Part shown: positions 12,161-34,943 of the stretch, piece by piece | Layout: the number at the start of each line of letters is the position of its first letter | Position numbering within the stretch: position 1 is the stretch's first letter | Assembly: GCA_004431415.1 (NCBI GenBank) | Contig: QPMI01000603.1 | Coordinates: forward strand, 1-64,000 | DNA length: 64,000 nt | From: Cyanophora paradoxa CCMP329 | Taxonomy: Eukaryota > Plantae > Glaucophyta | Reading direction: 5' to 3' | Made by a program: the position numbers and the translations under genes | Notes under the pieces: generated by a model | Database searches by the model: none | Seen by the model: only the letters and a program-made list of their open reading frames with translations | What the model was told of the DNA's origin: nothing

Positions 12161-12988
12161 ACACATATGAATATTCATATTTTAATCCCTCGGCGTTCCG
12201 CCTCAGGATTAAAATATGAATATTCATATGTGTGATTCGATGTTATATCAATAAAATCGATTAATTTATTTGAATTTTCACATGAATTTTCATATTTTTA
12301 TATGCATTTTCAATTAATTTAATCGATGTTATATCGATAAACTCGATTAATCGATATTGTATCTTAATTGTAGTTAATCGGAATTATATCAATAACTTCG
12401 ATTGATCTTAATTGAATCCTAATTGAATCTAATCGGAATTATATCAATAAATTCGATTAAATCATGTTCTTTTCCGATTAAATCAATTAAATATTTAATT
12501 TTGTTACCATAAGTGGTCTAAGTTGACTCACTTTTCATAAACATTTTGAACTCTTAGTCTCCATGAATTTCTTAAGATGACTCAACTTAGTCAACTTAGT
12601 CAACTTTGTTACCATAATCAATCAGGGTGGACTCACTTTTAGATCAACTTTGAAATCTCAATCAAAATCAACTTATATTTCAAAAGTGGATCTTCTAAGT
12701 GGACTCAAAATGTTCACTTTGTGATACATGTTAGCTCAAATCCTTACTGTTTATGGTCAGGGTTGACTAAGTGGGGGGAGTTGACACATTTTTTGAAATC
12801 CTTTTTAGAAAACTTTAGGTCCCAAATATTTCCTGTGAAATTTGAGTCAACTCAACCCACTTAGTCAACCCTTGCATTGAATTCGTAACAAAATCCATAT
12901 ACTATTACTACTTTTACGATTAATATGAGTCAACCTTGAGTCCACTTAAATATAAATATAATATAATAGGGGAATCAAGGGAGATGCT
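12161..12988 (+). repeat. Left TIR of outer PLV, with a 73-bp terminal hairpin and GTTGACT/AGTCAAC iteron-like motifs
   Basis: Reverse complement of 50190-51018, with roughly a dozen substitutions plus small indels. Hairpin arms are 12161-12188 and 12206-12233. Confidence 0.95.
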
Positions 12989-13580
12989 TACTAAATGCAG
13001 TGTTAGATTGATGATTTCACATATGTAATCACGATTATCTCTAAAGTAGATTTGGGTTGATTATTCGATGTTATCAGGTGATTGAGTTGATAAGTATTTG
13101 ATGTAGATCTTTAACTCTTTCGTTATAATCGAATTTAATCGAATTAGTTTTGAATTTTCAAAATCGGTTTAATCGTAATAGCGATGTATACACATCGAGA
13201 TTCGTAGATGTGATTGCAATTTATTGTTATGTATGATATTGGTGATTATATTGAATCGTTGGTGTATCGATTTGATAACTTCCTGGTGATCTGTATTAAA
13301 AACTCACGTTTAATGGATTTTAATCGAATTTAAAATCAAAATTCAAAATCGGTTTCATCGCGATTTGGAGTCACAGGTATCGAAAATCCTAGATGTGATA
13401 GTAGCGCTGTGACCGCCTTAAAATGCTCGATTTTATGACGTTTTAAGCGCATCGATTTGAGCATGTGGTGTTGAGATATCGTAGCAAACGTGAATAGTGA
13501 GTTTCTAGACGGGTACAGCATTAATCTAGAAAAAACCGCGTTTTTTTTTACTTTTCAAGTTTCACGGCGAACGAAGTAAA

Positions 13581-13654
13581 GGTTCCCGGTCGGATTTGAA
13601 CCTCGTAGTTCTGAGTCAGTAATCTAGCGCTTTATTCTCTGAGCCAAAAACGGC
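13581..13654 (-). pseudogene. Degenerate tRNA-like sequence with Pol III A/B-box-like motifs
   Basis: Minus strand reads TGGCTCAG..AAAGCG..CTAGA TTACTGA..GGTTCAAATCC with tRNA spacing, but the acceptor, anticodon and T stems pair poorly. Confidence 0.35.
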
Positions 13655-13879
13655 TTGCCATCTAGTCGACTCCTGGGCTAGTGTTTCACCAAGTCTACTA
13701 TGGCAAGTGACTTTTGCATCTTCAAACTGTTATATCTCATCACCAGATCATCAAAACGCAACGTTCTGCATATCGCTGTGAAGCGCTTGATAAGATCTAC
13801 AAGACTATGTGTATATCATGTGCATATATGTATATCAGTCATACATATATTTGGAAAAAACGAGTTTTTGCCTAGCAAA

Positions 13880-15265
13880 CTAGCTAGTTTTGGTCCTTTC
13901 TCTTAGTGTTCTCTGAGGTTTAGGGGCTGTATATGACTCCTTAGTAGTCTGAAAGTCATTATACCATCTCTGGCTATTAACCTCAGAAAGTTTCTGTGTC
14001 CCTGCTATAGTGAGCTTTTTGAGTTCCCTATTAACCTTGCCAGTCTTCTCCTTTCTAGCCTCTATCAAAGGCTTATCTGGGACTTCATTAGCAGCTTCTA
14101 TGCCTTCTCTCCTTATAGCAGCATCAACCTTGGCTTCCTCTTTGGCTTGCTCTAATGCATCCACTGTAGGTGTTTCCAGATACTCAACTGAATTCACAGG
14201 TAACAGCTCATGGAAAGCAAACCTGTTTTCTATGATCTCACCAGTGGGACTCCTTAGCTTAAACTTAAAGCCTTCCCTACTATCAACAGTGTAAACCATC
14301 CTAGACCAATTGTTACCCTGTTTAGCAAAGGGGTTCTTCTCAACTTTCACTCTAACAAACATGCCAGGCTGCATGGTATCAAGGTAAGCTATTGATTTCT
14401 TGAATCTTTCATCTTCTAATCCCACTATATACCTATAATGCTCCTCTGTAGTTTCGCCTGGCTTCATCTTAGTAGCTGAGTGAACTGTATTATTGTAATT
14501 ATACTCAATATCACCTAACACATCAAAGAATCTAGCTGTGTTATTAGCTATGCAATAGTTTGTGATCAGTCTCTTAATCTGCTTGTTAAAGGCTTCAATT
14601 CGACCTTGGCTTCTATGGTCAGCAGTTCCACTCACTTGGTGTTCTATGAATTTACTAGATAAATACTCCTGGAATATTCGATTTTGGAATTCACTCCCAG
14701 CATCTGATTGAACTTTTACTATGGGTCTTGCCACTCTCATTTCAAGCTGTTTAAATGCAGCTAATGTAGTGAGAGCTGATTTATCCCTTATAGGTATGAT
14801 ATACCCAGTTCTCAGTGTAGATTCCATTGCAGTCATAAAGGTATCATAGCCATTGTTTTGTTTCTTATAAGCTGGGAAAAAGAGCAAATCAATCACATAG
14901 GTATCAAGGGGTTGCCTAATTGGGACCATGGGATCTCTCTTCCTAGATATAGCAGGTGCATTGATCTGAACAACTTCTTGTTTTTTATAGAACTCTTGCA
15001 ACTGCTTATAGGATTCATCAGGTAACTCAGCCCTCATAGCTTGAAGCCCTTTGTAACCAGTTCTCACATCATAGAATCTCTTGGCAATCTTGCTGGTTTC
15101 TTTCACTGCAATAGCAACTGGGATCTCTACTGGGACAAGCTCTTTCATCTCTGACTTTTTTACAATTCGAGATTCTCCCTTTTCCTCCTTGGGAACTGTG
15201 ATAGGCAGTAGGTTACCTTGTAGTTGCTCAGTGGTTCTCCTAACTATTCTTCCAGTTGCTGGCAT
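13880..15265 (-). CDS. Retroviral-type (rve, DDE) integrase of outer PLV
   Basis: YVIDLLF, VQSDAGSEF, GRIEAFN triad; YNNTVHSATKMKP; WSRMVY SH3-like C-terminal region typical of Polinton integrases; consistent with the 6-bp TSD. Confidence 0.92.
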   Translation of the reverse strand: MPATGRIVRRTTEQLQGNLLPITVPKEEKGESRIVKKSEMKELVPVEIPVAIAVKETSKIAKRFYDVRTGYKGLQAMRAELPDESYKQLQEFYKKQEVVQINAPAISRKRDPMVPIRQPLDTYVIDLLFFPAYKKQNNGYDTFMTAMESTLRTGYIIPIRDKSALTTLAAFKQLEMRVARPIVKVQSDAGSEFQNRIFQEYLSSKFIEHQVSGTADHRSQGRIEAFNKQIKRLITNYCIANNTARFFDVLGDIEYNYNNTVHSATKMKPGETTEEHYRYIVGLEDERFKKSIAYLDTMQPGMFVRVKVEKNPFAKQGNNWSRMVYTVDSREGFKFKLRSPTGEIIENRFAFHELLPVNSVEYLETPTVDALEQAKEEAKVDAAIRREGIEAANEVPDKPLIEARKEKTGKVNRELKKLTIAGTQKLSEVNSQRWYNDFQTTKESYTAPKPQRTLRERTKTS

Positions 15266-15268
15266 CTC

Positions 15269-18200
15269 TTAATTAAAAGGAACAGAATTAATACCATCTG
15301 GTAAGATGTATCTCTTTGCATCAAAGCAGTTTAGGGCAACCCTTCTACTCACAGTGTCTATTATTGTGTGATCTGCCCTTCTTTTCTGCTTTGCAGTCAC
15401 AGTCTTGCTGATACCTGCAAATAAACACTGTTTAAAATCATTAAATTGGAGTTCCTCAGTTGAAGTCCCAGAGAGCTTACTCCTCTCAATCTCAGCAGTT
15501 CTGAAACTGTAAACTTTAGCTCTCAGACCCACATACTCCAATATAGCAGAGCCAGGCATTTCATTTTTGTATTTACCTGGGGTCATTCTGGAATCACCTC
15601 CAAGGTCTAATGCATAGGATATATTCTCTATATCTTTTGTAGGGTCTTAGATTCGATATATAGACAAAAGGAGTCAGTATCATGGAATAGTAACTTTGCT
15701 TTTGTCCATTGGGACCTTACAGTATCATAGAAGAACTTGTAGTTATGCAGTTTGGCTGCATCCAGAACATAAGCCCCAATAGCAACTGGCTTATCTAGCT
15801 TCACATGCTTTGTGTAAAACTCAAAGGCAACTGCTTTTTCGTTTATGGGACTTGTTGATTTCACCAATGGGGAGGCTGCATATTTCATAAACAGTTTCTC
15901 ACTGTTTGCAATCTTAACCACAGATCTACCTCTGCAAGATTCAATGCATTTCCCATAGATTGAGTTATTCATGAGTTTATAGAAATCAGCCTCGAATTTA
16001 TTCACTGCTTTCCTTCTCATCTCAGTATTCAGCTCAATGTAGGGTTTCATTACAGGAGCCACAGTAAATGATAGGACCCTGTGAACCTTCTTTAGTTTCA
16101 CCCCTTTGTCCAACAGATACTGTAGAAGAGGCTCAGAAATCACATAGTTGGTCACAGAACCAAAGGTTGCAGTTAGCTTAGGGGTCTTATCAAGCTCTTC
16201 TCCTGAGAGATCTAATAGGCTCTTTTGATATTGTGATAATTCTGCATATTCTACTATTTTCTTGTTAATAATTAGGGGAAATCACTGTGGTCTAGATATA
16301 GCCTAATTGGGTAATCCAGATCAACTTCCAGGAAACTGGATCTGTTATCTTGTGGGTTGAATTCGGTCTCCCATCTAAAATCACCAACTGGGATTGGCTG
16401 ACTCAAACAGTAGCCATACAAGTTGTTAGCATCAAACAGCATTATATGGGAGTTCTCACCATCAGCCTCAGCATACCTACAAGGCATTGTTGCAAAGCCA
16501 CCCCTGATTCCCCTCTCAACAAATTCGTATTGCTCTACATCACTTATAAGCTCTATTTTTGCCTTGGTGGTCCTAAGCATAGCATCCCAAGATAACCCAG
16601 GTGCAGATACATAATGAACTGGGTCCAATCCATATACTGAGTGTGAAAGCCTTCTGAAAGCCTGGAATTTGCTCATTAACTCATCTACATCAGCAGCCCC
16701 AAAGTCCATAAAATTACTTGCATCAATGAACTTGTAAAGACCCCATTGCAATGAAAGGTATTGATCAAAGTTTTTCGAAAGGATTTCGATTCGCTTTTTA
16801 TCACCCATGCCTGCTATTTTTCTGAAAATGAATGTCCCACAGTCATCCATTTGGTCAACAACCACTGCTACTTTTGTTTGCTTTGAGATTCTCCTATGGA
16901 GATTGCAGTTTCTGCATGCAGGTGCAATGTAATTACCTGTGTGGTGATCATGATCCCTGCATTTGAAGTTTTCCTTGGTGAACCTCTCACTGCAAAGGTA
17001 ACAGTGTTTGGTAGCTCTGTAAATAGCCTTTTGCTCATCTGTGAGTTCATTCATGGGAATATTGGTGAACAGGAAATCGATTAGCTCTCTTGCTTTGGAC
17101 TCCAAGCATTCAAACAGACCTCCCATTGGATCCTGACCCTCAAATCGAAACTCCTGAACATCTGCCCCAGTGACTATTCTAATGTTGACTGCTGAGACTT
17201 CCCTCTTGGATTTCGATGCATCAATGGGGATGCTTCTATGTTCAATCTTGCAGTAAACCACAACAGGAAGCCAGACAGTTTTCCTGAGGTTTTTCAGTCC
17301 AAACTCTATTGTGGTGTCAGGCTTAGGGGTGATTCCCTTTGAGAGTCTCCAATCAATGCATCTGTTTGAGTCCACATGAGCAGTGAGTTTAGCCTCAGAC
17401 CTGAATCGAGATAAGCATGTGTCACAGTAGTGTAACTTTTGATCATTGTATGTTTCATGGTTTACTTTCAATAGCCTTGAAAGGGACATGATTGTAATAT
17501 AGTGACCATTCCCTTCATCATCTTGGATCAGCATGAGATTAACCTTATGCTTTCTGCCTGGGTTACTGGATTGATGCAGGGGATAAATAACCTCTCCATC
17601 GATTCCAAATATATTAATGCTAATGCCTGCATTTTGAGCCTCGAATTTATCAATAATATCAGCATCACAGGCAACAGGGAATGGGATGTTATCGAAATTG
17701 AGAGCCAGCGGATTATAAGCGATTGCTGAGTATTTCCATTTGCGATATTGTGAAAGCTCATTCCTCTTATGGGAGTTTATCGCTTTTCTGTGAATATATG
17801 CCAAAATTGCATTTTCGAAGCAGGAATCATCAATATTTCGAATATTCACAGTGGCTCTCTTCCTAGCAATCCACTCTGGGGTTTGTAGAAAGCATCCACC
17901 AGTTGGAGCATAACTCATAATAGCCACTCTGAGTATTTCGATTCTTTCCAAGCGATAGCTATCAACCACATTCATCTGCTCTTGACACATTTGGGCTGCT
18001 TTATTCAGCTCAGTTCGAATATTTCTCGACCTGGTTAATACAAAATAATCACTGTAAATGTATTTCGATATCCAAACCTGCGGATTGCTGACTTTTACGA
18101 ACTTGCAGATAAAAGACAAGCGAACCTTGATTGCCCTGAATTGATCTAAACCCTGCTTTAATCGATTAGGAAGGGATGTAGCAATTCTGTCCAGGAATTC

Positions 18201-18512
18201 AATCACATCTACAACAACTTCCCTTCTGGCTCTGTAAGTGAGCCAGCGATATAATTCATTCATGGCTGTTCCATCTTCTGCCTCAGGTTCTATTTGCCTT
18301 AGGCGATCCAGTTCATCCAAGGTTTCAATTTTATCATATAGGTTATTTGCTTTTCTGGTTAATCTGGCTAAAGTGGGTCTACCCTTTGCAATTAAATCTA
18401 TTTCCCGGTCATATTCAGCCTCTGTAATTTCATGGGCTGCATAAAGTGTTCCCAGCAATCCCATGAGTTCCCATTTCTTCTCCCTTATGAGTTTGTTGGT
18501 AATTCGGGGCAT
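15269..18512 (-). CDS. polB: Protein-primed family B DNA polymerase of outer PLV (three frameshifted pieces: 16272-18512, 15628-16155, 15269-15586); exonuclease domain degenerate
   Basis: RGIRGG, DANNLYG, KLMNNSIYGK, HDTDS and KVY motifs; N-terminal Zn-finger and EndoVII-like CxxC..RDHDHHTG..CxxCN; collinear with the intact PolB at 35399-39367. Confidence 0.92.
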
Positions 18513-18573
18513 TATTCCTAACTTGTTCCTATTCTAAGGGGATATTTTATTTTAGAGCATTTTAAACGCATTT

Positions 18574-18924
18574 TCAAAATATTTTAATGGATCCATTGGC
18601 TTCCTCTGAATGGAATCGCAAAAACCTATTAATCCTAAATCGGGATTTCGGTTTTTGTAAATTGACTATCCAAGGTTCAAAGAGATACATGTAATATGCT
18701 TCTCTGTTCATTAGGTCTTCATGCCCACCCTTCTTACTTGAGTACAGGACTGAGAACTTCACATCAGAAGCCTTGCATAGGTCTGCTGTAGATGGCATTT
18801 GACCTGATTTGTGTTGTCGCCATCTTTTTTGTAGTGGCTGTGAGGTTCTCCCTATGTAGAGTTTGTTCATTTCCTCACTTTCAATCATATAGATTGATCC
18901 AGAATCATGATCTGTTCCAGTCAT
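18574..18924 (-). CDS. GIY-YIG endonuclease
   Basis: SIYMI..LYIGRT..LQKRWRQH..E..N motif pattern. Confidence 0.85.
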   Translation of the reverse strand: MTGTDHDSGSIYMIESEEMNKLYIGRTSQPLQKRWRQHKSGQMPSTADLCKASDVKFSVLYSSKKGGHEDLMNREAYYMYLFEPWIVNLQKPKSRFRINRFLRFHSEEANGSIKIF

Positions 18925-18975
18925 TTCGAACTACTAACATATAAATATATTTTTCTATCTCTTAAATCATTTTTT

Positions 18976-19157
18976 GGTTGACTTAGTGGGTGGAGTTGAG
19001 GCACTTTTTATTTCTTTTTATGGCAGAGTCCTCTCTTAGAATCTGTGAAAAAATGAGTCAACTCCCCCCACTTAGTCAACCTAATCGATTAACACACCAA
19101 AAATAAAAGACTGTTTGGGTCTTTTATGATAAATTTGAGTCAACCATGAGTCCACTT
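18976..19157. promoter_or_regulatory. Internal copy of TIR inverted-repeat motifs (candidate origin / protein-binding site)
   Basis: GGTTGACTTAGTGGG (18976)..CCCACTTAGTCAACC (19067)..GAGTCAACCATGAGTCCACTT (19137) match 12761, 12856 and 12927 in the TIR with similar spacing. Confidence 0.6.
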
Positions 19158-19167
19158 TTGAGTAAAC

Positions 19168-21759
19168 CTAAACTTCAACATCAGAATCATAATCTGATGC
19201 ATCAGGATCAGCAGCAGGTAGGTCTTGTTTCATCCTTGGATTAGCTTCTTCCTCAATAGTTTCATCATCTACAAGCTTCATCTTTCTGAATTCCTCAAAT
19301 ACTTGTGGGAATAGGAAATGATAGTATTGCTTACCATTTGTAGTTTTCACTTGGATATATGTCACACTTCTCATTTCAGTATAATACCTGCGACTATTAT
19401 AATCGTTTTTATATTTATTGCTGGTAATGAACTCCTGGAACCATTTCCAGGTTTCCACAAGGCTACCAGACTTGCATTTATTCTCGGAAATTAAGCCTCG
19501 ATCCACAAGCCACTTAGTGAACATAAGGATGATTGGAGCGCACACCTGTTGGGCTAAATAGTATTTATTTGTAAGGGTCTATCAGCAATCCAGTTCACAT
19601 CCTCACAGTCAACTTTGGTTCTCAAATAGTGGGCAATGTTTCGAATATTGCAGTGATCATTTAGCCATTTTACAAGTGGAAGGAAGTATGACCTATCCTT
19701 TGCGAATTTCTTACTAACTTCAACAACCACAAATCGCCTATCTCCAGCTTCAATTTTCACTGGAATGTTGTTATTGCTGGTGAATATAATCCTGGCAAAG
19801 TTGCTTTTTGTGTATGAATCTATCCCTTTGTGTTCAATTACAATCTTATCAGAAGTTATGAGATCTTTGAGCATATCATTATTTTCGAATGTGTCCTTGC
19901 CTGAGGCTTCATTCACAACAATCAAGATCTTATCCTCTCTATTGTGGGCAAATCGACCAAACAGATCCTCTTTTGGCTTTCCAGTTGCATAACTCAGGGC
20001 ATCTCCAAGTATCTTCTTTTGGAAAGTATCAACCAACACATTCTTACCAGTTCCCTGTTCACCAATGAAGATTAAGGATACTCCATTGAGTTCCCCAGGC
20101 TTTTGCAGCATGTGGGCAAACCATTTCAACAGATATTCATAGGTATTTTGATCCTCACCAGACATTAAGAACAAGTGATCTAGGAAAGGCTTAATCATCT
20201 CAGCAGTTACATCCTCTGGAGCATTTTCGAATTGCTGATGGTCAACCTTCATTCCTGGATAGAGGTTGAATACAGATTTGCATTTCGCACTGAGAGTAGC
20301 AGGAGGTGGGAGGAAATCCATGTAAGTTGATCTTGTGGCTGTTGGATCCACAATCCATTTTCTAAATGATTGCTCCCATTTCTCTTTCTCATTATCTGTC
20401 CCCTCATTCACAATCACCTTATGCATCAAATGGGGGAAATGCTTTGTAGAGAGCTTCCCAATATCTTTGGGCATCCAGCAAAGTAGTTGTTCATCCCAGA
20501 GCATCACACAACCAACATTTTCAACATGATGCATTCGAGCATTGAAATACCTCTTATGCACATTGTAATGTTCAGCCAAAGGAGGGATACTTGCAGTCTT
20601 GTAATCGATTTCATCTGTGTCCTCTGGTAGGAATGCATACTTTTTGGGGAAGAGTTCCTTGAAAAGCTCATTGTTATCTTTGCTCAACCAATAAACCAAG
20701 GATTTGAAGGTCAACACTTTGCCAGGCTCAGCCTTCTTCTTGCTTCTGCGAAGCTGTGTAAACTTCTCCTGGCATTCATCATAATCATACTTGTCACTCT
20801 GTTCTGAGAATTGGTGGAAGAGTTCAGCTTGCATTTTAGGGGTGAACTTGTTGTCTTCCCCAACATTGATGATGACCAGTCCTACATCAATCCAAGTTTT
20901 ATACTCATTAGCTCTCTCACCATTCAGACCCATTATAACACTTTGTAGCAGTTCGAAAGTAACAGGATTTTCGGGTTCAGTGTCTTTTTCAGCTTCTACC
21001 TTCTCAGTCTTCACTTTATCACTTTTTGGCTCCTTTTTAACTGGTTTTGGCTCAAGGCTATAATTTGCGAATGCAGAAATATTCGATTCATCCACAAGTT
21101 TAGTAGAAGCTGAGAAGAAAGATACAAAGAAGTCCTCATTTCGCATTAACACTTTGTCACAGTCAACGAATTTCTTAAAGCAAACGTTTTTATCAACATC
21201 TTTCTTTGATTTATTTTGAGCATCCAGAGTCTCACCTTTGCAGCAATTGAGGCAGATAAGGTTCTGTGTGGAGCTGTAAACTCCACTGTCATAATCCTCA
21301 TTTTTCACCAATCCCATAGCTTTGAAAAGCTTGGGATATCTTCATGTTTGCATGCAAGCGATTTAATGATAAAGTGGGCTGAGATCTTGAACTTGGTGAC
21401 ATCCTCCTTGATCAAATAAACCCTTCTATGGCGAACTGCAACAGCAATATCGTTAATCGAAGTGGTCCAGATCGCTTCCATAGCTTATCTCTCATCTCTC
21501 TTACAACAGTTTCCGCCTCAGCATAGTTTTCAGCAATGTTCTCCTTCAAATCAGCGAATTTATCCAGGTCCAGGTAAACTCTGGTGACTTGTTCAGGCTG
21601 AATGCATTCAGCCCAGGTCTTAACCTTGCTATTATCAATGGCTTCAAGGGCATCTTCAGCAGAATCAAATACATGGGTGACCTTGTTGCGATCACCAATG
21701 AGAGTACTAAGGAATGTAGCATTTTCAACAGGGGTGGCGAATTTCTCGATTTTGTTCAT
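19168..21759 (-). CDS. Primase (AEP-like)-PriCT-2-superfamily 3 (D5-like) helicase, frameshifted (21412-21759, 19554-21317, 19168-19545)
   Basis: RVYLDLD at the N-terminus; YKTWIDVGLVI..FHQFSEQSDKYD (PriCT-2-like); Walker A GEQGTGKN, VNEA, IFTSNN, DRRF. Confidence 0.85.
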
Positions 21760-21977
21760 TTTCGATTTTGGGGGACTTCTACCTTTAACGAAGAAAATAA
21801 TTTCGGAAGGAGGAATTGTCTTTTATATATATCCTATTATTTGCCAAGTCCTTAAGTAGTTTTGGGTCGGGATACTGTCTCGATATATAGGTACAGTTTT
21901 AAAAAAGAGGGAAGAAAGCTGTCATTTTTTTGCCTCCGATCAAATCGATTTCTACAAAATTTGTTTCGATCGAGAAT

Positions 21978-22304
21978 TTATTCTTCGATATATTTCCGAG
22001 GTCTTCCAACCGGTTTATGCTCTTTGGGTTTCTTGGGCTGTTCATCTTTCTTCTTGTGGTAATATTCCAGCGCTTTTGCCTTTTTCTGCTCGCGATATTC
22101 TTCATTTTCCCTGTATTTCCTCTGGTGTCTGAGGGCAATCTTTTTGAGTTCTTCTGGTGTGTGAACTGTAGCGGCTCCTTGGGATAATCGTTCCTCCTTC
22201 TTTTTATGATAGGCTTCGCGTTTTCTTTGGGCATCTTGCTCCCTTTTCAGTCTCAGCTTCTCTGCTTTTTCATCATCTGTGAGTATCTTGCGGATATTCG
22301 GCAT
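21978..22304 (-). CDS. Small basic protein with C-terminal AT-hook-like GRPRK
   Basis: ATG-initiated and K/R/E-rich; YRENEEYREQKKAKALEYY..PVGRPRKY; paralogous to 22457-22702. Confidence 0.65.
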   Translation of the reverse strand: MPNIRKILTDDEKAEKLRLKREQDAQRKREAYHKKKEERLSQGAATVHTPEELKKIALRHQRKYRENEEYREQKKAKALEYYHKKKDEQPKKPKEHKPVGRPRKYIEE

Positions 22305-22456
22305 TTCTCTTTAATAGTAGATACGAAAATAATTTTTCCTCAATACAACCTATCTACTTTTTCCTTAAGTCATTTTTTGTTGCAAACACCAGTTCCTGTC
22401 TGTAAACTTTTATAGCTGCCTCAGTAGCATACTGAGACCGCTTTTTCTCAATTATT

Positions 22457-22702
22457 TTATAGACCTGGGGGTCCATTGCTACTATCAGTAGGCAAATAAT
22501 ATTTAATCGGTCTCCCTCTTGGTCTCTGCTCCTCTTTTTGGGCTTTTCTGCGATAATAGGATGCCAAGGCTTGCTGCTTTTTATACTCTCTATAGGCTGG
22601 GTCCTCTCTATATCGTTTCTGCATTGCTAGAATGTGTCTAATAGAACCCTCAGTAACAGGTTCATCACTGGTAAACTCGATTAAACTAATAGTGTCCTCC
22701 AT
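22457..22702 (-). CDS. Small basic protein with AT-hook-like RGRP
   Basis: YREDPAYREYKKQQALASYY..RPRGRPIKY. Confidence 0.6.
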   Translation of the reverse strand: MEDTISLIEFTSDEPVTEGSIRHILAMQKRYREDPAYREYKKQQALASYYRRKAQKEEQRPRGRPIKYYLPTDSSNGPPGL

Positions 22703-23018
22703 TTATATTCCCAGAGAAAACGTTTTCTGCTGGCAGAGAACTTCTCCTTGGATACTCCTGCTGCTCATATGTATACTCTGTGGGGTCTGCTGGCATTGAC
22801 TCCACAGAAACTGTTGATCTCCTTCTCTCTCTTGCTTCTGAGGCATTATCCTCATTATCTGACATCTCAAACTCCACTCTTGTCTCACAGCATCCACTGT
22901 GGCAATTGCTCACCACATGCAGACTGAACATCTCGAAAAACTTTCGTATTATATCCATGTCTCTAATAAAACAGATAAAATTAAAGCCAAACTCGTCTTT
23001 TATATACTGTTGGGGCAA
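22686..23018 (-). CDS. Hypothetical viral protein (start may be ~22959)
   Basis: ORF fills the gap in a co-oriented gene run; no motif recognised. Confidence 0.35.
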   Translation of the reverse strand: MPQQYIKDEFGFNFICFIRDMDIIRKFFEMFSLHVVSNCHSGCCETRVEFEMSDNEDNASEARERRRSTVSVESMPADPTEYTYEQQEYPRRSSLPAENVFSGNINGGHY

Positions 23019-24126
23019 CTCCCTTTTCTACTTCAGCTTTAGTGGCACCAGGTTCAATGGTTCCCTTTTGGGTCTTTGTTTTCATTTCATCTACTGCTTG
23101 CTCATCGATTTGGTTCTCTTTCTTAGCAATAAACTGTTTATCTGGGACACCAGTAATGCCCATTTTATAAACTTCCTTTCGAAGCATCTCCTTGAGCTTG
23201 GCTCTCTCTTTCTTCTCAGTAACATACTGCTCTAAGGCACTGGATTTGGCTTCCAGATCTTTGAGTTTAGCAGTCATCTCATCCCATTGAGCCTTGGGAA
23301 TTCGATGAACATTCTGAGTGGGAGCAGTCTTGTATGTGACTTCACCAGCCATAGACTGGATTACCTTGTCTGATTCCTTACTAAGACCTTCACCTTTGCG
23401 AGCCAGTGATAGATCTTGCAAGCCTAAACCTTTATCATCAGCAGCACCAATAATTCGCCTGGCACCCTCAGCAACAGCTTTCATTTTTGAGGCTTCTGGT
23501 GAGATGTTTCTGTATTTAACTGAGTAGCCAGCAGAGGACCAAACGATATACTGATAGGAGTGGACATATTCTTCAAACATTTTGTAAAAGTCCTCCTTGT
23601 TTCGCATTATATTGTATTCTTCCTCTATGGCTTCAAGTTCTTTGCGATTAGCAGCACTCAGGAAAACAGCATAATCAGAATTAACTCGAATAGTGGAAGA
23701 GACTTTTCTGAGTTTCTGTGTAATGCAGATAATGGATATTTTCGAATGTCTGCCCCTACTGTACAGAGATGACACCACCTTGTCTCTGGTTAAATCAATT
23801 ATCTCATTATCAATTAAATCATCTAAAACAACACACATGTGGTTGACAGGTTCACCTTTTTCGATTTTCTCCTGCCTTTCATCCAAAAGCTTTGAAATAT
23901 AACCAGCATCCCATTTACCAAGTTCTACTGTTGCCACCTCTGTCCAAAAATGATTGAAGCTGGTCCCACTCACAACTAGGACAACATCAACTACTTTGGC
24001 ATCATGTAATTGCTTTAACCAATACTTTACACATTCGCTTTTTCCCGTACAACTTTTGCCTATAAAAATGGCTCTGAAAACACCTTTTATCATTTCAGAA
24101 ACATTAAACTCTTCTAAATCTTGCAT
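22981..24126 (-). CDS. A32/FtsK-HerA-like genome packaging ATPase with charged C-terminal extension
   Basis: Walker A GKSCTGKS, Walker B VVLDD, RGRHSKISI..Q..IRVN; ATG chosen at 24126 (MQDLEEF). Confidence 0.9.
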   Translation of the reverse strand: MQDLEEFNVSEMIKGVFRAIFIGKSCTGKSECVKYWLKQLHDAKVVDVVLVVSGTSFNHFWTEVATVELGKWDAGYISKLLDERQEKIEKGEPVNHMCVVLDDLIDNEIIDLTRDKVVSSLYSRGRHSKISIICITQKLRKVSSTIRVNSDYAVFLSAANRKELEAIEEEYNIMRNKEDFYKMFEEYVHSYQYIVWSSAGYSVKYRNISPEASKMKAVAEGARRIIGAADDKGLGLQDLSLARKGEGLSKESDKVIQSMAGEVTYKTAPTQNVHRIPKAQWDEMTAKLKDLEAKSSALEQYVTEKKERAKLKEMLRKEVYKMGITGVPDKQFIAKKENQIDEQAVDEMKTKTQKGTIEPGATKAEVEKGVAPTVYKRRVWL

Positions 24127-24190
24127 TGTTGTAGATCTTCCTAAATAAAGACAGATAAAAATAATGCAGGGTGACTGAATATGGTCAGAT

Positions 24191-25561
24191 CTAAAGATTA
24201 ATTCTACGAAGACCTGAGCCATCTATAATGAGGAAACTATGCATGAGAGCGCGAACATTAACATCGATTACCTTATCTGAAGGCATGTAGAGGGTGAGGA
24301 ATGAAGATGAGGAATTTGTCAGGTCAACAAATCCACTTTGAGCGATATTTCGAATTGCCTTCTCTCCATCAATGCAGAAACTCATACCCGAAAGGACATA
24401 TTTATCTGCAACCTTGTCCATGTTAGAGCATTTGAAGGCATCAGCAATAAGCTCAGCACCTTTGAGTAGGGAAATTGGCTCAGTGGCATAAAGTCGCTGT
24501 CCATTAATTTCAACAGTGAAAGTAATATCTTTGGAGTTGGCATAGGTCTTAAGAACACTGTGGGAGCCATTGGATTTGTCAACAGTTTCATGATCACGAA
24601 CTGAAACAAGCAGAGCATATACAAGACCTGAGATTTGAGAGAGGTTAATTCGATTGGGTTGGGCATTGCCCTTGGCAGAGAAAGCACTAGCATCTACAAA
24701 TCCAATATCAAGGGAGGGAATAGCCATGCCAGTAGTCTTTACTTTTTCAATTACAGTAGCAAAAAGCTCATCAGAAACATTAATAGCATGCATGTAAAGG
24801 CGAGGAGAAGTAATAGAAATGACAGGGGTTGTTGCACCAAGAGTAAAGTCTGTGATGTTTTGACCAACATTTGCCAGAACAGTTTCAGCAGGGGCAGTTC
24901 CAAGACCATCATCTTTTGAATAATCTACATCAGCTGCTGCAACAGTAAGACCACGACCACCATAGGAAGTTTCAACATAACCCTTTCCAGCATCCTTAAA
25001 CCAAACAGTAACAACCATTTCACCAGATAAAGCACCAAGGGGAAGGTAGTGATTTAGCCAAGGCACAGGGATTTCAACAAAGAATGAGCCACCAAGGCGG
25101 TTGGTTCCATGAGCAGGAATGCCATGAACCATGCCCATTGATCGCTTCTTTTTAGCTAGTTGATCCTCCGAATAATAGACCAGGGGGAAATGCGCAAGGA
25201 AATCAGAGGGAATATGATAGGTGTAAGATCCATAGGTAATTTCAAGTCGCTGAACTAAAGCACCAACTGGGCGAGTGTATCCATTACGAACTAGGTCAGT
25301 GTCACCAGCAAAAGTGATGGCTGGAAGGTCGAAAGCAAGTTCGAGTTTTCCACAGAAATTGTAGCGAGGTAGCTTGAAGGAAATGCGATTTCCAACATTA
25401 TTCTCAAAAGTATTGCTGGGATTCACAACAACTAGAACTGGCTTAGACTTGGATTCGAGACCAAGCATAAGGGAGTTATCCAGGAAAAAGGCTTTCGCCT
25501 CCTCTGGGGTTGTTAGGGCTTCTTTCAGCGAAAGTCTTTGAAGAGTGGAAGTGATATCCAT
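24191..25561 (-). CDS. Major capsid protein (double jelly-roll, inferred) of outer PLV
   Basis: ~456 aa, between the ATPase and the mCPs; FKLPRYNF..LELAFDLP, IPVPW..YLPLGAL; visibly homologous to 31647-32873 (GFVDLTNSSSS vs GYQDFFNSSSS). Confidence 0.8.
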   Translation of the reverse strand: MDITSTLQRLSLKEALTTPEEAKAFFLDNSLMLGLESKSKPVLVVVNPSNTFENNVGNRISFKLPRYNFCGKLELAFDLPAITFAGDTDLVRNGYTRPVGALVQRLEITYGSYTYHIPSDFLAHFPLVYYSEDQLAKKKRSMGMVHGIPAHGTNRLGGSFFVEIPVPWLNHYLPLGALSGEMVVTVWFKDAGKGYVETSYGGRGLTVAAADVDYSKDDGLGTAPAETVLANVGQNITDFTLGATTPVISITSPRLYMHAINVSDELFATVIEKVKTTGMAIPSLDIGFVDASAFSAKGNAQPNRINLSQISGLVYALLVSVRDHETVDKSNGSHSVLKTYANSKDITFTVEINGQRLYATEPISLLKGAELIADAFKCSNMDKVADKYVLSGMSFCIDGEKAIRNIAQSGFVDLTNSSSSFLTLYMPSDKVIDVNVRALMHSFLIIDGSGLRRINL

Positions 25562-25614
25562 TATATTCTCTTTTATTATACTGCAACATAAAAAATCTAC
25601 CAATGATCCTTAAT

Positions 25615-26625
25615 TTATGCGAAGTTTGTAATAACTGGATAGGAAGGGTGAAGCTGTGACATTCTCATCTTAAAGTATTCATAAACTGGGTCTCCTGCTG
25701 GCTCATCACCATAGCGAATTTCAAAGGTCAGATGAACAGGTTGACCCTCAAAATCAATTGGTTCATTTACAGCATTAACAATATCAACCGAGAAAGTGGA
25801 TAATCCAACCTTTTTGTTATAGTATTTATAAAGTGGATGAGCCTCTGTTGAATTGTAAACAACATGCTCACCATAATCTTTGTCAGGAACCACTATTTTA
25901 TGGAAGTAACCAGTCAGAAGACCATCCCCACATTGAACCAGATCACCCAGCTCCTTTACTCTCACAAACAAAACACTGTCCCTGGTCTTCTCAGGCTCAA
26001 AAGAAGATATAATGCCATTCACTCGACCATCAGTAAAGATTCCATCAGTGAGAGCATCATAGACCTGTGATTGGATTGGGGAGTTACCATATCTTCCAGG
26101 ATCAAGACCCAGCAGTCTAGCTGAACTCAACAGCTTTTGGATTGTTTGTTGGCTTGGGTTCACAGCTACTGAGAAAGCCAAGTAAAATGGTACTGCTGAG
26201 TGGAATATAATTCGTTTCAGTGATTCATCCCATTTGCAGCGAATGGATGGTTGGGGATTTCTGCCTTCGAATTTAGAGTTAATTACATTCACCAGCTGCT
26301 GGTGGCTTTGGATGGGGGTGTTTCGACTTATAATGAATTGTTTCCATTGTTCATAGTCAGCAGCTGGGCGAACTGTTGGAATTCCTGAGCTTCCAGCTCC
26401 AGGAGTTTGTTCAGAATAATAAATGCTAAATGCATTGTCAACTGTGACATCTCCTGCTTTGGTTTCACCACTCACCATAGGGATACTGTTATAAAATTCG
26501 GCTGAGACCAGTCTCACAGCCCTCACATTCTCATAACTACTGGGGAGTCTAGCCACAAAGCTTGATGTGGGACCATCACCAGAGATTGTATTAAATGAGC
26601 TAACCTCGATGTAATCCACAGGCAT
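25615..26625 (-). CDS. Minor capsid (penton-like) protein 1
   Basis: N-terminal YIEVSS..SSFVARLP..NVRAVRLVSAEFYNS and C-terminal IVN..PIDFEG.PVHLTFEI pattern of PLV/virophage-type single jelly-roll proteins. Confidence 0.7.
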   Translation of the reverse strand: MPVDYIEVSSFNTISGDGPTSSFVARLPSSYENVRAVRLVSAEFYNSIPMVSGETKAGDVTVDNAFSIYYSEQTPGAGSSGIPTVRPAADYEQWKQFIISRNTPIQSHQQLVNVINSKFEGRNPQPSIRCKWDESLKRIIFHSAVPFYLAFSVAVNPSQQTIQKLLSSARLLGLDPGRYGNSPIQSQVYDALTDGIFTDGRVNGIISSFEPEKTRDSVLFVRVKELGDLVQCGDGLLTGYFHKIVVPDKDYGEHVVYNSTEAHPLYKYYNKKVGLSTFSVDIVNAVNEPIDFEGQPVHLTFEIRYGDEPAGDPVYEYFKMRMSQLHPSYPVITNFA

Positions 26626-26654
26626 TCTTCTTTTATCTATATTTATATATTAAA

Positions 26655-27585
26655 ATGAATCGACTTGTTAATATTGATAGCAGGGATAGAAGCCAAGGAC
26701 AAAATGAAAACTCTTACAGGGTCACCCTCACAACTCCAGTAGAGAGACCAAGGGAATGCAGGGTTCTATATGCAGAGATTCCAAACAGTATCTATAACAG
26801 TGTGGGGACTGATCATTTAACAGTTGATTTTAACTACCAAGATGGTTCATATAACCAAGTGATCACACAACAAGTGTATCCCCTTCCCAGTGGCTACATC
26901 AATCAGGGTCATTTTGGGGTCACACACCCTTATAATTATGGGCTGAACTATTCAAGCTTCCAAACTATTGCAGGCAAAACAGTAGCTTTTGAGTTCAAGA
27001 TATTCTACAACCCAACAACCTATAAAGTGGAGTTTTACAGTAACCATGAGTTTCGTTTTATTGCAAGCAACCAGAGAATAGGAAAGCTTTTGGGTGTAAG
27101 TTCTACTGAATACACTAATGGGTATTATAGCACTCCTCCTGTTGGTGGATCTCCATATCGACCTGAGAACCTTTTAAAGTATGATGGCAAACCTATTACA
27201 CCTGATCACCCAGCATGGGGAATCACCTTCTCAGGACCCAGACTCTCCTCTAAGCCCTTGCAATATTATTTTGACAGCAGGAAGATGTCTGATATGAATG
27301 CTGAGCAGTATCTGTACATGCATATTAAAGAGCTGTCCCCTTTGCCAGCAGACACAATATAATTCCAAAATCGCAACCACAAAACCAGGGAGCTATCCTT
27401 AGATTGCAATTGAGTAAAGATATAGGGGCTATGTTTACCATAGTGGTGAACATGCAGAATTTATTCAAATCAATGACAGAAACCTGGTGATAAGGGAACT
27501 CACTGTGGAGTTTAAAGATTACTTTGGTGAACTGATTGATATGAATGGAATCGATAATTCTTTTCAGTTGGAGTTTATCGAATAA
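26655..27585 (+). CDS. Minor capsid (penton-like) protein 2, frameshifted near 27350-27480
   Basis: LVNIDSRDR..YRVTL..AEIPNS; C-terminus LTVEFKDYFGELIDMNGIDNSFQLEFIE* continues in another frame to 27585. Confidence 0.72.
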
Positions 27586-29109
27586 AGGCACCTGTAAAGT
27601 CAACTCTCATTGTGGGAGCATTCACATACACAAGGGGATAAATGCGAATATATCTTATTCTCAGAGAATAACCTATGTAAAAAGCATCCTTGATGCTGAG
27701 AGGGAACCCACTCAATAGAGCCACATCACCAGAGTTGTGAGCATTGTTAATGTTCTCACAGACATATATTTTGTTTTGCCCATCTGATCGAATAAAAGAC
27801 CAGTTGATCCCATCAGTGGATGTTGCCACATTGAAAGTCTTAATAAAAGCATTGGTGTCCCCTGATCCATAGGCAATCACAGAGGAGAGTTCAAAAGTAT
27901 ATGGAAAAGCAACTTGAAGGTATTCAGTGGGGTTTTCCCATATCTGTTCAGGAGCATAGGCTCCAGCTTCCCAGCCAAATGCTGAAGGTCTAGCCATGAA
28001 AGGCTCTTTACCTGTCACAGAGGATGAGGCAGTAAAGGCATCATCTGCAAGCTGATACCAATTGGCATCCAAAGGAGGTGATGTAGTGAGAGTGGATGAA
28101 ATGTAAGCCTTTGAAGGGTTCTTCAGTTCATAGTTTGCTACTAGTAGGCTGCAAAGCTTATTAATCATATCATTGTTTGCTGCTATGTAGGTTTCAGTGA
28201 ATGCAAGCATGTCTGGGATTTTAGAAGTGTCATCCAGGGAGCTTACTATATGATTTGGAAGTGGGACTGATAGCCTATAGTATCTCCCATAATCCTGATC
28301 ATAGTTGTAGGGTAACAACTCCTCCATCTTATCAAGGGCAGAAAGCTCACTTGCAGCCATGAGCATGTTAATCAATGGGCTTCCATCTGTTGAGGCAATC
28401 CATGAGAGAATGCCCCAGCTGTTCACAGTCTCATAAGCATAACCCACATAATCAGACTCTAAATGTGGGTCCACCTCTCCACAAGAGATGCTTATTACTA
28501 TAATATCATCATCATCACTGTAAATCTTCTTTGCATGGCTGTAACCACACACACTGGGATTATTGTTTCCCGAAATGGCACCATCAATGAGACAGACAAA
28601 TACTCCCCGATTGAAATCAACAATGCTTACAGGAGAGAAATATGTAGGAGCAGCAGAGGTAGCCCTAGCAGCAATCTTACAAGGCAGAAAGCTGTAATTG
28701 TTATCATTTGTGATAAATATTGGTTTCATATTCTGAGTATCAAAGGATGTGATCACAATGTCCTTTAGGGAATCCTGTATTAGTGATTCCCCAGTAACTG
28801 AATTGATTGCAGTCTCCAAGGGTCCCACATCATACTTTGTGTTAAATAGGGCATTTTCAATGATATTTCGAGGATTTGCGAAAATCAAAGGCAGTTGAGT
28901 TAGGTAAATATTGTGTAAATCGTTTGCTGTCAGTTTAGGTTCACCTGGTCTATCAGGATGCCTTATATTCAAACCTATTGCAATGATCCCACCAGTGGAA
29001 GTTCCACTCACAAGATCCACAAGATCGATTATTCTCCTGCCAGTTCGATTTTCGATTTCTTTTAGCAGCCTGGTTATGATAATGCCCCTTGCACCCCCGC
29101 CAGAAAGAC
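27575..29109 (-). pseudogene. Patatin-like phospholipase fused to a C-terminal F5/8 type C (discoidin) domain; separated from its first codons by the nested PLV
   Basis: GGGARG, GTSTG and DGA patatin motifs; EYLQV..F..STDG.NW..IRYIRIYP..MRVDFTG discoidin pattern; native start lies at 41144. Confidence 0.88.
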
Positions 29110-29445
29110 AAAAAATGGTGTTTTGGGCGTTCTGCCCCACGACACCATTTATCGTCTCATATTTCACAAAATCTCAAAAATCCTTACCATAAGCCTATCT
29201 ATCGATTAATTTCACACGATATCCACACGATACACCACGATATCCGCACGATATCCACACGATAAACAGCAATACCACACGATATCCAAACGATAAACCA
29301 CGATATCCACACGATTACACACGATATCTCTCGATTGTCGTACTTTAATCGAAAAATATCCCACAAAAACTAATTACCATAAACCAAAATTTCAATTACC
29401 TGTATTCACCACATCGAATTCGTTTTAAACATATAAAGATTTATC
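29110..29445 (+). repeat. Left TIR of inner PLV, with terminal hairpin and tandem CACGATA(T/A) repeats
   Basis: Reverse complement of 40781-41116; AAATGGTGT..ACACCATTT hairpin; ~10 ACGAT-core repeats at 29214-29328. Confidence 0.95.
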
Positions 29446-29500
29446 GACAGACAAAAAATGACGTCCTTAAATTTAAAAAACGTTTTACTGAGTATCCACA

Positions 29501-29929
29501 ATGACAACCGAAACGTTTTCTGAATGCTATTTCGGGAATAATTACGATGATGAATCTTTCGGAATAATCAATAGTGTCTATAAAGGACTAAAAGAGTATA
29601 AAGGTGTTACACAGGAAATGATACATAAATGTTTCTTGTCTAACAGACTCGATGAATTAATCCATAAGAAAAACAAATATTTTTCTTGTCTTTCATACCA
29701 GAGGTTCAAAGCGAAGGGATTAGTTATTGGAAAAACACATGAAAAAGAAGTATCCGATAAATTCGAAATACTCGATGATAATCATTGTGCATACTGTAAA
29801 CATAATAACTTTGGTAAAAATATGTTACGCTCACCAGATTGTTGTGTTTGCTATAAAGTAATATGCAAGAACTGTGCTTATTTAGCCAAAGATGGTGTTT
29901 ATGAAGAAGTTCACACAAACTGTCGCTAA
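29501..29929 (+). CDS. Hypothetical protein with C-terminal Cys-rich Zn-finger-like region
   Basis: CAYC..CCVC..CKNC..HTNC; preceded by CAAAAAATGACG. Confidence 0.65.
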   Translation: MTTETFSECYFGNNYDDESFGIINSVYKGLKEYKGVTQEMIHKCFLSNRLDELIHKKNKYFSCLSYQRFKAKGLVIGKTHEKEVSDKFEILDDNHCAYCKHNNFGKNMLRSPDCCVCYKVICKNCAYLAKDGVYEEVHTNCR

Positions 29930-29978
29930 ACCGAGCAAAAAATGACGCCCCGCAAAAACAAAACCACAACCTGTAACC

Positions 29979-30266
29979 ATGGCGATTACAAAAGAATATT
30001 TCGCGAATCATTTGGGATTTTACGTTAATCCTGATTTATCGGAAGAAGAACGCATAAAAGCAATAACAGATAAGGTGTTTACCGATACAACCGGGTGTAA
30101 TCTTTCGAAGGTTTCAAGTTCAGCAAGAAAAGCAATTAGAAAAGCAAACGAAACCTACATACAACCATCGTATAATGAAACTATCAATTTAGCAGAAGCC
30201 CGACATGATCGTAATTTAATGAAATTGAAGTTAAGAAAGAAGCTTGAAGCTCGCAAGAACCAGTAA
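29979..30266 (+). CDS. Hypothetical protein
   Basis: ATG ORF preceded by the CAAAAAATGACG motif. Confidence 0.55.
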   Translation: MAITKEYFANHLGFYVNPDLSEEERIKAITDKVFTDTTGCNLSKVSSSARKAIRKANETYIQPSYNETINLAEARHDRNLMKLKLRKKLEARKNQ

Positions 30267-30319
30267 AAAACACGCATTAAAAATTGATTACCTTTTTTAG
30301 AACTTAACAAATCTTACAA

Positions 30320-31548: not shown

Positions 31549-31646
31549 TACTGTGTGTCCGTTACAGTAATAAGATAAAAAACAAAATCACACGCTAACC
31601 TATACGCGATTCGCAGGCTTCCTACTTTAAAGAAAGAAAAAGAACT

Positions 31647-32873: not shown

Positions 32874-32925
32874 GTCTTATGTTTAAAATACGAAAAGAAA
32901 TTTTTAAATTACATTATTAAACAGA

Positions 32926-33831: not shown

Positions 33832-33863
33832 TTTTGTATAATAAATTTGTTTCTTTAATTCAA

Positions 33864-34610: not shown

Positions 34611-34943
34611 GGATCATTCTTACGTTAAAAATTTCTTTTCAAAGAATAGCGTTAAACATCCATCTCCGAATTTTAGCGCTCACGTTTACTTATTTTTATA
34701 AGTGGCGTTGTAGAGAAGTTGTGATATCCATGTATCACGCTTTTTAATCACCTGTTCTACGGGGTTCAATCGTAGAATCGAGGAAGCGAAGACTTTCGGC
34801 TTATTTTTCCGGCATCTTCTTATTATCGATGCGCAAAAAATGACGGTGGGCAAAAAATGACGATGTTCTAAGAAAACGTATAACCGACAAGAAAAAGGAC
34901 TTAAAGATTTCTTGCTATATATTAGAAGAGGAACAGCAAGAGA

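What the first reader, a model, noticed from the sequence alone, without database searches (positions are those of the whole stretch)
16650..17280. Outer PolB has lost its proofreading exonuclease while polymerase motifs are intact
Seen, comparing the two PolBs in this window: ExoI IVGDFEC becomes VVYCKIEH, and ExoII HNLKGYD becomes DQMDDCG. About 100 aa between FxDxxNFM and FxxFR (containing KGHFPY and ExoIII YLATD) are replaced by 13 aa, in frame. DANNLYG, KLMNNS-GK and DTDS are kept. Targeted loss of all three Exo motifs looks like evolved inactivation, not random decay. Inference: an error-prone polymerase, or one specialised for priming.
Basis: partly seen in the sequence, partly recalled or inferred. 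Interest (0 to 1): 0.7.

Follow-up and report, generated by a model that had tools for sequence, protein, structure and literature searches.

The report
Proofreading-dead Polinton polymerase with helicase partner
A virus-like element integrated in an alga-like genome carries a DNA polymerase that has lost its error-correcting site while keeping its copying motifs; a distant relative shares the same loss, and the element also encodes a helicase that likely helps the polymerase open DNA.

Summary
The loss is real and inherited. The outer PolB (18512-15269, minus strand) of a 38.9-kb Polinton-like element is a pPolB2-type enzyme with an HNH insertion. The first ExoI Asp is Lys, ExoII is one codon short, and 111 aa holding KGxxPY and the ExoIII Tyr shrink to 13. 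Corrections: the ExoI Glu and the ExoIII Asp position survive, and the assembly splits the gene into three ORFs; short-read contigs show the first break to be an assembly error and the second probably so. A full-length relative (P0001, 45% identical) has the same deletion and lacks all four acids. Copies in the host are under purifying selection (21 of 28 variants synonymous). The Exo fold survives as a scaffold (phi29 match, Z 11.6). The element also encodes a primase-SF3 helicase and ends in 28-bp hairpins; the nested element with an intact PolB has no helicase. Exo loss with helicase gain is known from mavirus and Tlr1-type PLVs; I found no report of it in pPolB2. Error-proneness and helicase dependence are inferred, not tested.

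The parts
12161..51018 (.). Outer Polinton-like element, low-GC island
   Evidence: GC about 0.40 against mostly 0.5-0.8 in flanks; TIRs; identical 6-bp target-site duplication at 12155-12160 and 51019-51024
12161..12972 (+). Left TIR; begins with a 73-nt hairpin (28-bp stem flush with the end)
   Evidence: z -11.2, 0 of 200 shuffles; 13 differences between TIRs in 812 bp
50208..51018 (-). Right TIR with the same terminal hairpin
13880..15265 (-). rve integrase
   Evidence: PF00665 E 2.6e-4, below the curated cut-off
15269..18512 (-). Exo-minus pPolB2-type polymerase, about 1081 aa; three ORFs in the assembly (breaks near 16275 and 15635)
17463..18512 (-). N-terminal region: likely terminal-protein domain (aa 1-205) and vOTU protease (aa 206-350, Cys231 and His337 kept)
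   Evidence: Cys in 239 of 239 and His in 246 of 247 homologs with a residue there (motif positions); domain names taken from PMC11161782; weak OTU fold hit E 0.03
17238..17261 (-). ExoI remnant: first Asp replaced by Lys422, Glu424 kept
16878..17042 (-). HNH / EndoVII zinc domain inserted in the Exo fold, motif kept
   Evidence: PF02945 E 2.3e-4, below cut-off; motif kept in outer, P0001 and inner; 53% identical to P0001
16836..16856 (-). ExoII remnant, one codon shorter, H-N and Y-D pattern lost
16668..16709 (-). Deletion junction: 98 aa net lost, including KGxxPY and the ExoIII Tyr; Asp608 (16691-16689) in the ExoIII position
16413..16433 (-). Pol motif A (DANNLYG)
15949..15978 (-). Pol motif B (KLMNNSIYGK)
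15670..15684 (-). Pol motif C (HDTDS)
18574..18924 (-). GIY-YIG endonuclease
   Evidence: PF01541 E 8.5e-11
18976..19157 (+). Direct, 70%-identical copy of the inner part of the left TIR (12761-12947)
19168..21759 (-). AEP-like / PriCT-2 / SF3 helicase gene, about 862 aa; three frame breaks in the assembly that short-read contigs do not share
   Evidence: PF19263 E 3.6e-21, PF08707 E 4.1e-9; Walker A/B, motif C and Arg finger; AEP DxD, SxH and D kept, Arg of FRL not kept; indels at full depth at two sites and about half at the third, in 3 DNA runs
22981..24222 (-). A32-type packaging ATPase
   Evidence: PF04665 E 1.3e-11
24191..25561 (-). Likely major capsid protein (inferred from size, position and similarity to the inner counterpart)
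   Evidence: 24% identity, E 1e-21, to inner ORF 31647-32873; no Pfam or PHROG hit
29110..41116 (.). Nested inner element with 336-bp perfect TIRs and a 6-bp TSD; no helicase gene found
35399..39367 (+). Inner pPolB2 with all Exo and Pol motifs intact (internal control)

Best explanation
The outer element's PolB is a Polinton pPolB2-type polymerase whose proofreading motifs are disrupted by substitutions and a 98-aa deletion shared with a distant relative, and it likely works as a non-proofreading replicase helped by the element's own SF3 helicase. Shown: the lesions; their presence in short-read contigs and in a 45%-identical full-length relative; purifying selection; intact Pol A/B/C, HNH and vOTU motifs. 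Predicted (AlphaFold): the Exo domain still folds, as a catalytically dead scaffold that carries the HNH domain and probably still lines the template channel. Inferred: no 3'-5' exonuclease activity, lower fidelity, weakened intrinsic strand displacement, and unwinding supplied by the helicase, as proposed for mavirus. Initiation is probably still by the terminal-protein domain released by vOTU.
For: Homolog census (268 rows other than the outer ORF and P0001): ExoI Asp 254 (12 gaps), ExoII Asp 264, ExoIII Asp 263, ExoIII Tyr 260, Lys of KGxxPY 266. The outer protein lacks the ExoI Asp, the Tyr and KGxxPY. P0001 is one open 1083-aa ORF with the same 22-aa spacer, and Q/K/gap/N at the four acid positions. 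Outer and P0001 form one clade on the polymerase domain alone (SH-aLRT 99-100). Identity outer vs P0001: polymerase 52%, vOTU 56%, HNH 53%, Exo remnants 28-36%. Among host copies, 21 of 28 variants in 16600-17300 are synonymous, against 20% expected (pN/pS 0.086, p 9e-10). First frame break: the contigs differ from the assembly at full depth in 3 of 3 DNA runs. Model pLDDT 82-98 over aa 401-660; aa 413-746 match phi29 polymerase 3-302 at Z 11.6, rmsd 4.2, and DEDD nucleases at Z about 8. Helicase contrast: the outer element has one; the inner element and 0 of 19 viral loci (18 scored, all Exo-intact) show one; 0 of 47 large ORFs from 17 of those loci hit a helicase family. PMC11161782 (passages) reports that Exo loss goes with helicase gain. 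PMC4974454 (passages and section 12) names the catalytic acids and Tyr, and places the Exo domain in the tunnel that forces strand displacement. The four Exo-minus proteins rank 1, 3, 4 and 21 of 166 in root-to-tip length.
Against: No activity was measured. Glu424, Asp608 and possibly Asp556/557 remain in this copy, so weak residual activity is not formally excluded. The helicase link rests on one element: no genomic context was obtained for P0001, P0183 or P0198, and the Exo-intact control loci are partial. In one search, copies diverge just upstream of the PolB start (loose ends at 18549 and 18555), and summed contig depth is several-fold higher over integrase-PolB than over the helicase. 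The tool warns that depth is no copy number, but the PolB may also sit in other arrangements. The second frame break is contradicted by only about 40-50% of summed depth in the three DNA runs, and contigs describe the family, so this copy could be broken there. Two preprints (passages) describe pPolB plus D5-like primase-helicase as transient states of replicase replacement. Long branches depend on midpoint rooting and on how the homologs were selected.
Confidence: 0.6

Rival explanations
1. Division of labour: the Exo-dead pPolB only primes (terminal-protein nucleotidylation and short extension) or marks the ends for the integrase. Bulk synthesis is done by the AEP-SF3 primase-helicase or a host or giant-virus polymerase, possibly from the fold-back hairpin ends.
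For: The same element carries an AEP-like domain with DxD, SxH and D on an SF3 helicase. Both ends form a 28-bp hairpin flush with the terminus. bioRxiv 10.64898/2026.07.28.741278 (passages) finds terminal palindromes mainly in elements with non-pPolB replication genes and proposes hairpin priming.
Against: The whole polymerase domain, thumb included, is as conserved as any part of the protein (52% to P0001). The AEP lacks the Arg of the FRL motif seen in 4 AEP-type homologs among 19 aligned. Both ends carry the same hairpin orientation, so no flip-flop is seen in this one copy. The inner element also has a smaller terminal hairpin (z -4).
Confidence: 0.2
2. Mosaic by chance: an integrase-PolB-GIY module with a non-proofreading polymerase has recombined into an element that already had an AEP-SF3 replicase. 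The two replicases work independently, and Exo loss is tolerated (or favoured as a mutator) without any helicase partner.
For: The module lies between the left TIR and a 70% copy of its inner part. Copies diverge just upstream of the PolB start. bioRxiv 10.64898/2026.10.13.758929 (passages) reports frequent replicase exchange and elements with two replicases.
Against: No helicase in the inner element or in 19 viral loci with this PolB type; the published pattern of Exo loss with helicase gain. GC and GC3 do not separate the modules.
Confidence: 0.15
3. Decay of a dead copy or an assembly artefact.
For: The assembled gene has two frame breaks; the element is interrupted by a nested insertion.
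Against: The same deletion is in an intact 45%-identical protein; contigs bridge it; pN/pS is 0.086; the first break is absent from the contigs.
Confidence: 0.03

Closest known systems
Polinton pPolB2 with HNH insertion (Jeong et al., bioRxiv 10.1101/2023.08.22.554363; passages read)
   Same: Integrase-linked protein-primed PolB with an HNH domain inside the Exo region and Pol A/B/C motifs; the nearest homologs are of this type.
   Different: That survey (20,702 pPolB1 and 1,331 pPolB2) reports conserved Exo motifs in all taxon groups; here they are disrupted.
Mavirus-type pPolB with separate SF3 helicase (Krupovic et al. 2024, PMC11161782; pMVRE group 1, PMC13215967; passages read)
   Same: TP-vOTU-polymerase without proofreading, plus a separately encoded DUF5906 SF3 helicase and an rve integrase.
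   Different: Mavirus keeps only a remnant of Exo in a 617-aa protein (weak fold match, 10% identity). Here most of the Exo fold and an HNH insertion are kept in about 1081 aa, the sequence groups with Exo-intact pPolB2 homologs, and the helicase carries an AEP-like domain and PriCT-2.
Tlr1-like pPolB-SF1 helicase fusions of PLVs and transpovirons (PMC11161782)
   Same: Exo loss coupled to a helicase.
   Different: There the helicase is SF1 and fused, and Exo is absent altogether; no fusion here.
phi29 DNA polymerase D12A/D66A exo-minus mutant (PMC4974454, section 12)
   Same: The ExoI first Asp and probably the ExoII Asp are the positions lost, within a retained fold (Z 11.6).
   Different: Here the loss is natural and adds a 98-aa deletion. 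That KGxxPY is the phi29 Lys143 (Kx2hxA) motif is my recall, not a call result.

Membership tests
Polinton pPolB2 (HNH type) | Pol A, B, C motifs | tested here: met
   also in P0001
Polinton pPolB2 (HNH type) | HNH/EndoVII domain inserted in the Exo region | tested here: met
   PF02945 E 2.3e-4, below cut-off; zinc and DHxH...CxxCN motif kept
Polinton pPolB2 (HNH type) | Conserved ExoI, ExoII, ExoIII | tested here: not met
   a derived member by descent, not a canonical one
Polinton pPolB2 (HNH type) | N-terminal TP domain and active vOTU | tested here: inconclusive
   vOTU Cys and His kept; OTU fold hit only E 0.03; the aa 84-202 fold matched Y-family little-finger domains, and no terminal protein was listed
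Polinton pPolB2 (HNH type) | Placement with named pPolB2 reference sequences in a tree | not tested
   The trees held database homologs only, without named pPolB1, pPolB2 or mavirus references
Mavirus-type Exo-less pPolB | Exo reduced to a remnant in a short (about 620 aa) protein | tested here: not met
   About 200 aa of Exo plus HNH is kept and folds; length about 1081
Mavirus-type Exo-less pPolB | Separate SF3 (DUF5906) helicase gene | tested here: met
Mavirus-type Exo-less pPolB | Virophage-type capsid module | tested here: inconclusive
   The capsid candidate has no Pfam or PHROG hit
Tlr1-like pPolB-SF1H | SF1 helicase fused to the C-terminus | tested here: not met
   The gene ends after the thumb, as in P0001; the integrase follows
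Polinton / Polinton-like virus | Long TIRs and 6-bp TSD | tested here: met
Polinton / Polinton-like virus | rve integrase and A32 ATPase | tested here: met
   (rve below cut-off, A32 above)
Polinton / Polinton-like virus | Double jelly-roll capsid protein; maturation protease | tested here: inconclusive
   Candidate 24191-25561 was not folded; no protease among 34 ORFs scanned
Exonuclease-dead family B polymerase | No 3'-5' exonuclease activity | not testable with these tools
   Needs an assay

The most novel reading that the evidence does not exclude
A Polinton lineage caught midway through changing its replication mode. Its pPolB2 has given up proofreading while keeping a dead Exo scaffold, it has gained a primase-SF3 helicase, and it has 28-bp fold-back ends that could self-prime. 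Protein priming and strand displacement would be giving way to helicase-driven, hairpin- or primase-primed synthesis. With the second Exo-deleted pair (P0183, P0198), this may have happened more than once within pPolB2.
Probability: 0.2. Interest if true: 0.75.

Novelty: new variant of a known kind. Interest (0 to 1): 0.52.

Why it matters
Krupovic et al. 2024 proposed, from two groups (mavirus, Tlr1-type PLVs), that losing the exonuclease of a protein-primed PolB is compensated by gaining a helicase. Both groups are end states with the domain almost gone. This lineage is a likely further case in the HNH-bearing pPolB2 family, described as Exo-intact in a large survey, and it shows an intermediate state: fold kept, catalytic site dismantled. 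An Exo-intact, helicase-free element sits nested in the same locus, so the pair gives a matched comparison for assays of fidelity and strand displacement, and for the mutation load of the two families in one host.

Tried and rejected
No whole genome is held, so sibling loci could not be read directly. A single-sequence fold of P0001 failed (pLDDT 32) and was not used. Searches for more Exo-minus relatives with genomic context found none. Viral contigs: searches gave only L001, which is Exo-intact; one search gave 18 loci, 17 scored and Exo-intact, L009 frameshifted and unscored; searches gave nothing. Metagenome contigs: one search gave nothing; one search gave 62 loci, of which 32 reach the Exo region, 30 show at least one Exo motif and 2 are fragmentary. 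The alignment-based homolog search returned no hit although its own members are in the database, so I treat it as a failed search, not as absence. A DNA-pattern search for the junction was not run, which leaves the number of relatives open. One origin against two for the four Exo-deleted proteins is unresolved: the trees place two pairs apart, but the AU test does not reject one clade (p 0.46, quick tree; the careful tree did not finish). P0162 (55-aa spacer) was set aside as a probable gene-model error, since it keeps ExoII and the ExoIII Asp. Foldseek against PDB gave no hit at E<=0.001; the sequence search of PDB reached phi29 only at E 0.47. No RNA holder is listed; this says nothing on expression. 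TIR divergence (13 of 812 against 0 of 336) was rejected as a fidelity test because the outer element is older. Loss of the Lys before G in 'KLSG' was not pursued. Earlier scan findings: nothing. Paper searches 62 and 63 served only as background.

Full report
Setting. The window holds a low-GC island (about 0.40, against mostly 0.5-0.8 in the flanks) in a GC-rich eukaryote whose flank has a phytochrome domain (PF00360), so the host looks algal rather than animal (inference). The island is a 38.9-kb element, 12161-51018, with 812-bp TIRs and a 6-bp target-site duplication. A second element, 29110-41116, with 336-bp perfect TIRs and its own 6-bp duplication, is inserted in it and splits a patatin-like gene. 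Each element has a PolB, an integrase-like gene, an A32 ATPase and a capsid candidate (the inner integrase call rests on my reading of the sequence, with no Pfam hit).

Observation. The outer PolB runs from 18512 to 15269 on the minus strand. Against the inner PolB, ExoI reads Y-C-K-I-E, ExoII reads DQMDDCG, and 111 aa between the FxDxxNF and FxxFR anchors are 13 aa. Among 268 other pPolBs (hits plus the inner PolB), the ExoI Asp is kept in 254 (12 gaps, mostly truncated proteins), the ExoII Asp in 264, the ExoIII Asp in 263 and the ExoIII Tyr in 260; the spacer median is 116 aa against 22 here. Two corrections. First, Glu424 of ExoI and Asp608 at the ExoIII position survive, and the ExoII register is ambiguous; what is clearly lost is the first ExoI Asp, the KGxxPY segment and the ExoIII Tyr. 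Second, the polymerase motifs are present but spread over three ORFs in the assembly.

Artefact or decay? Short-read contigs from three DNA runs differ from the assembly by a one-base indel in a homopolymer run at the first break, at full depth. At the second break they differ at about 40-50% of summed depth, with loose ends that fit the same indel, and the one X15 contig also differs there. The three breaks in the helicase gene behave alike. The breaks are therefore most likely assembly errors, with the caveat that contigs describe the family and drop rare variants. The Exo deletion, in contrast, is bridged by contigs (X2 16629-16745 and X15 16437-16773, 0 differences), and no indel or joint is listed in 16600-17300. 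Of all 28 variants listed there, 21 are synonymous, against 20% expected; pN/pS is 0.086, p 9e-10 (variants pooled over four runs, not independent events). One loose end at 16843, read by eye, continues as a more diverged homolog that also lacks the Y-D of ExoII.

Relatives. P0001 (Logan, 1083 aa, one ORF, 45% identical) has the same 22-aa spacer and has lost all four acid positions. It pairs with the outer protein on the polymerase domain alone (SH-aLRT 99-100). Identity is 52-56% in the polymerase, vOTU and HNH parts and 28-36% in the Exo remnants: relaxed, but maintained over a long time. Two more proteins among the 268, P0183 and P0198 (with cluster member P0269), have different deletions of the same segment (spacers 40 and 34) and lack the ExoI Asp and the ExoIII acid. 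They form their own pair elsewhere in the tree, but one origin for all four is not rejected (AU p 0.46). The four rank 1, 3, 4 and 21 of 166 in root-to-tip distance, which fits faster evolution but depends on rooting and on hit selection.

Structure. An AlphaFold model of the 746-aa ORF on a 60-sequence alignment has mean pLDDT 83.5, and 82-98 over aa 401-660. Residues 413-746 align with phi29 polymerase 3-302 (Z 11.6, rmsd 4.2, 240 aligned) and with TREX1 and RNase T (Z about 8). In BFVD the best matches are adintovirus PolBs; mavirus PolB is a weak match (E 8e-5, 10% identity). So the Exo core is predicted to persist as a scaffold carrying an HNH domain with its motif intact.

Partners. The outer element encodes an AEP-like/PriCT-2/SF3 helicase of about 862 aa with Walker A, Walker B, motif C and an Arg finger. 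The AEP keeps DxD, SxH and D but not the Arg seen in 4 AEP-type homologs among 19 aligned. The inner element has no helicase. None of 19 viral loci with this PolB type matched the helicase (18 scored, all Exo-intact), and 0 of 47 large ORFs from 17 of them hit a helicase family; these loci are partial. Both outer ends fold into a 28-bp hairpin flush with the terminus (z -11). A 70% copy of the inner TIR segment lies between the integrase-PolB-GIY block and the helicase.

Mechanism. In phi29 the ExoI, II and III acids bind the two metals and the ExoIII Tyr orients the water, and the Exo domain helps form the tunnel behind strand displacement (PMC4974454, passages and section 12). Losing the first Asp, the Tyr and 98 aa should abolish proofreading and may weaken displacement (inference). 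The simplest working model is a protein-primed, non-proofreading replicase assisted by the SF3 helicase (0.6). Rivals: priming only, with AEP or hairpin-primed synthesis (0.2); a chance mosaic of two independent replicases (0.15); decay (0.03). That the loss itself is real and inherited I put at about 0.95, and that exonuclease activity is absent at about 0.9.

Known work and novelty. PMC11161782 (passages and section 5) describes Exo loss in mavirus pPolB (with a separate SF3 helicase) and in Tlr1-like pPolB-SF1H fusions, as independent events. PMC13215967 and PMC12721341 (passages) repeat this. bioRxiv 10.1101/2023.08.22.554363 (passages) defines pPolB2 with an HNH insertion and reports conserved Exo motifs across taxa. 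bioRxiv 10.64898/2026.07.28.741278 and 10.64898/2026.10.13.758929 (passages) describe terminal palindromes, two-replicase elements and replicase exchange, with no mention of the exonuclease. PMC10120064 (passages) notes artificial frameshifts in assemblies of such elements. Searches showed no report of an Exo-minus pPolB2; the library lacks most subscription papers, and I read no supplements, which may hold such sequences (notably the datasets of PMC13215967 and of the mosaicism preprint). Verdict: a new variant of a known kind, interest 0.52.

Noticed in passing
window 12161-12233 and 50946-51018: Both ends of the outer element form a 73-nt hairpin with a 28-bp perfect stem flush with the terminus, in the same orientation at both ends; a possible self-priming end.
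   Followed up: partly
window 18976-19157: A 70%-identical direct copy of the inner part of the left TIR, so the integrase-PolB-GIY block lies between two TIR-like segments; a possible module boundary or shared regulatory motif.
   Followed up: partly
window 29104-29110 and 41117-41145: The inner element inserted into the N-terminal Gly-rich motif of a patatin-like gene of the outer element; the start of the gene lies beyond the right end of the insertion.
   Followed up: partly
proteins P0183, P0198, P0269: A second pair of pPolB2-type proteins with a different deletion of the same Exo segment and loss of the ExoI Asp; possibly an independent loss.
   Followed up: partly
window 19168-21759: The AEP domain of the primase-helicase keeps three catalytic motifs but lacks a conserved Arg; several of its helicase homologs (P0281 and others) carry a different N-terminal domain that looks PolA-like (recalled motifs).
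   Followed up: partly
window 49557-49955: S-adenosylmethionine decarboxylase-like gene (PF02675 E 1.8e-11) in the outer element.
   Followed up: no
window 44145-47189: A 1014-aa fibre-like protein with an internal repeat and a C-terminal S74 intramolecular chaperone.
   Followed up: no
window 15450 (run X15): One contig matches the PolB 3' part and then continues in sequence resembling the 13440 region, suggesting a deleted variant without the integrase.
   Followed up: no
L019:4439-10000: An 1854-aa Exo-intact PolB with a C-terminal extension that has a weak PriCT-2 hit; the same locus has a Sputnik-type capsid gene.
   Followed up: no
window 1688-3553: A host gene with a phytochrome domain in the high-GC flank.
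   Followed up: no
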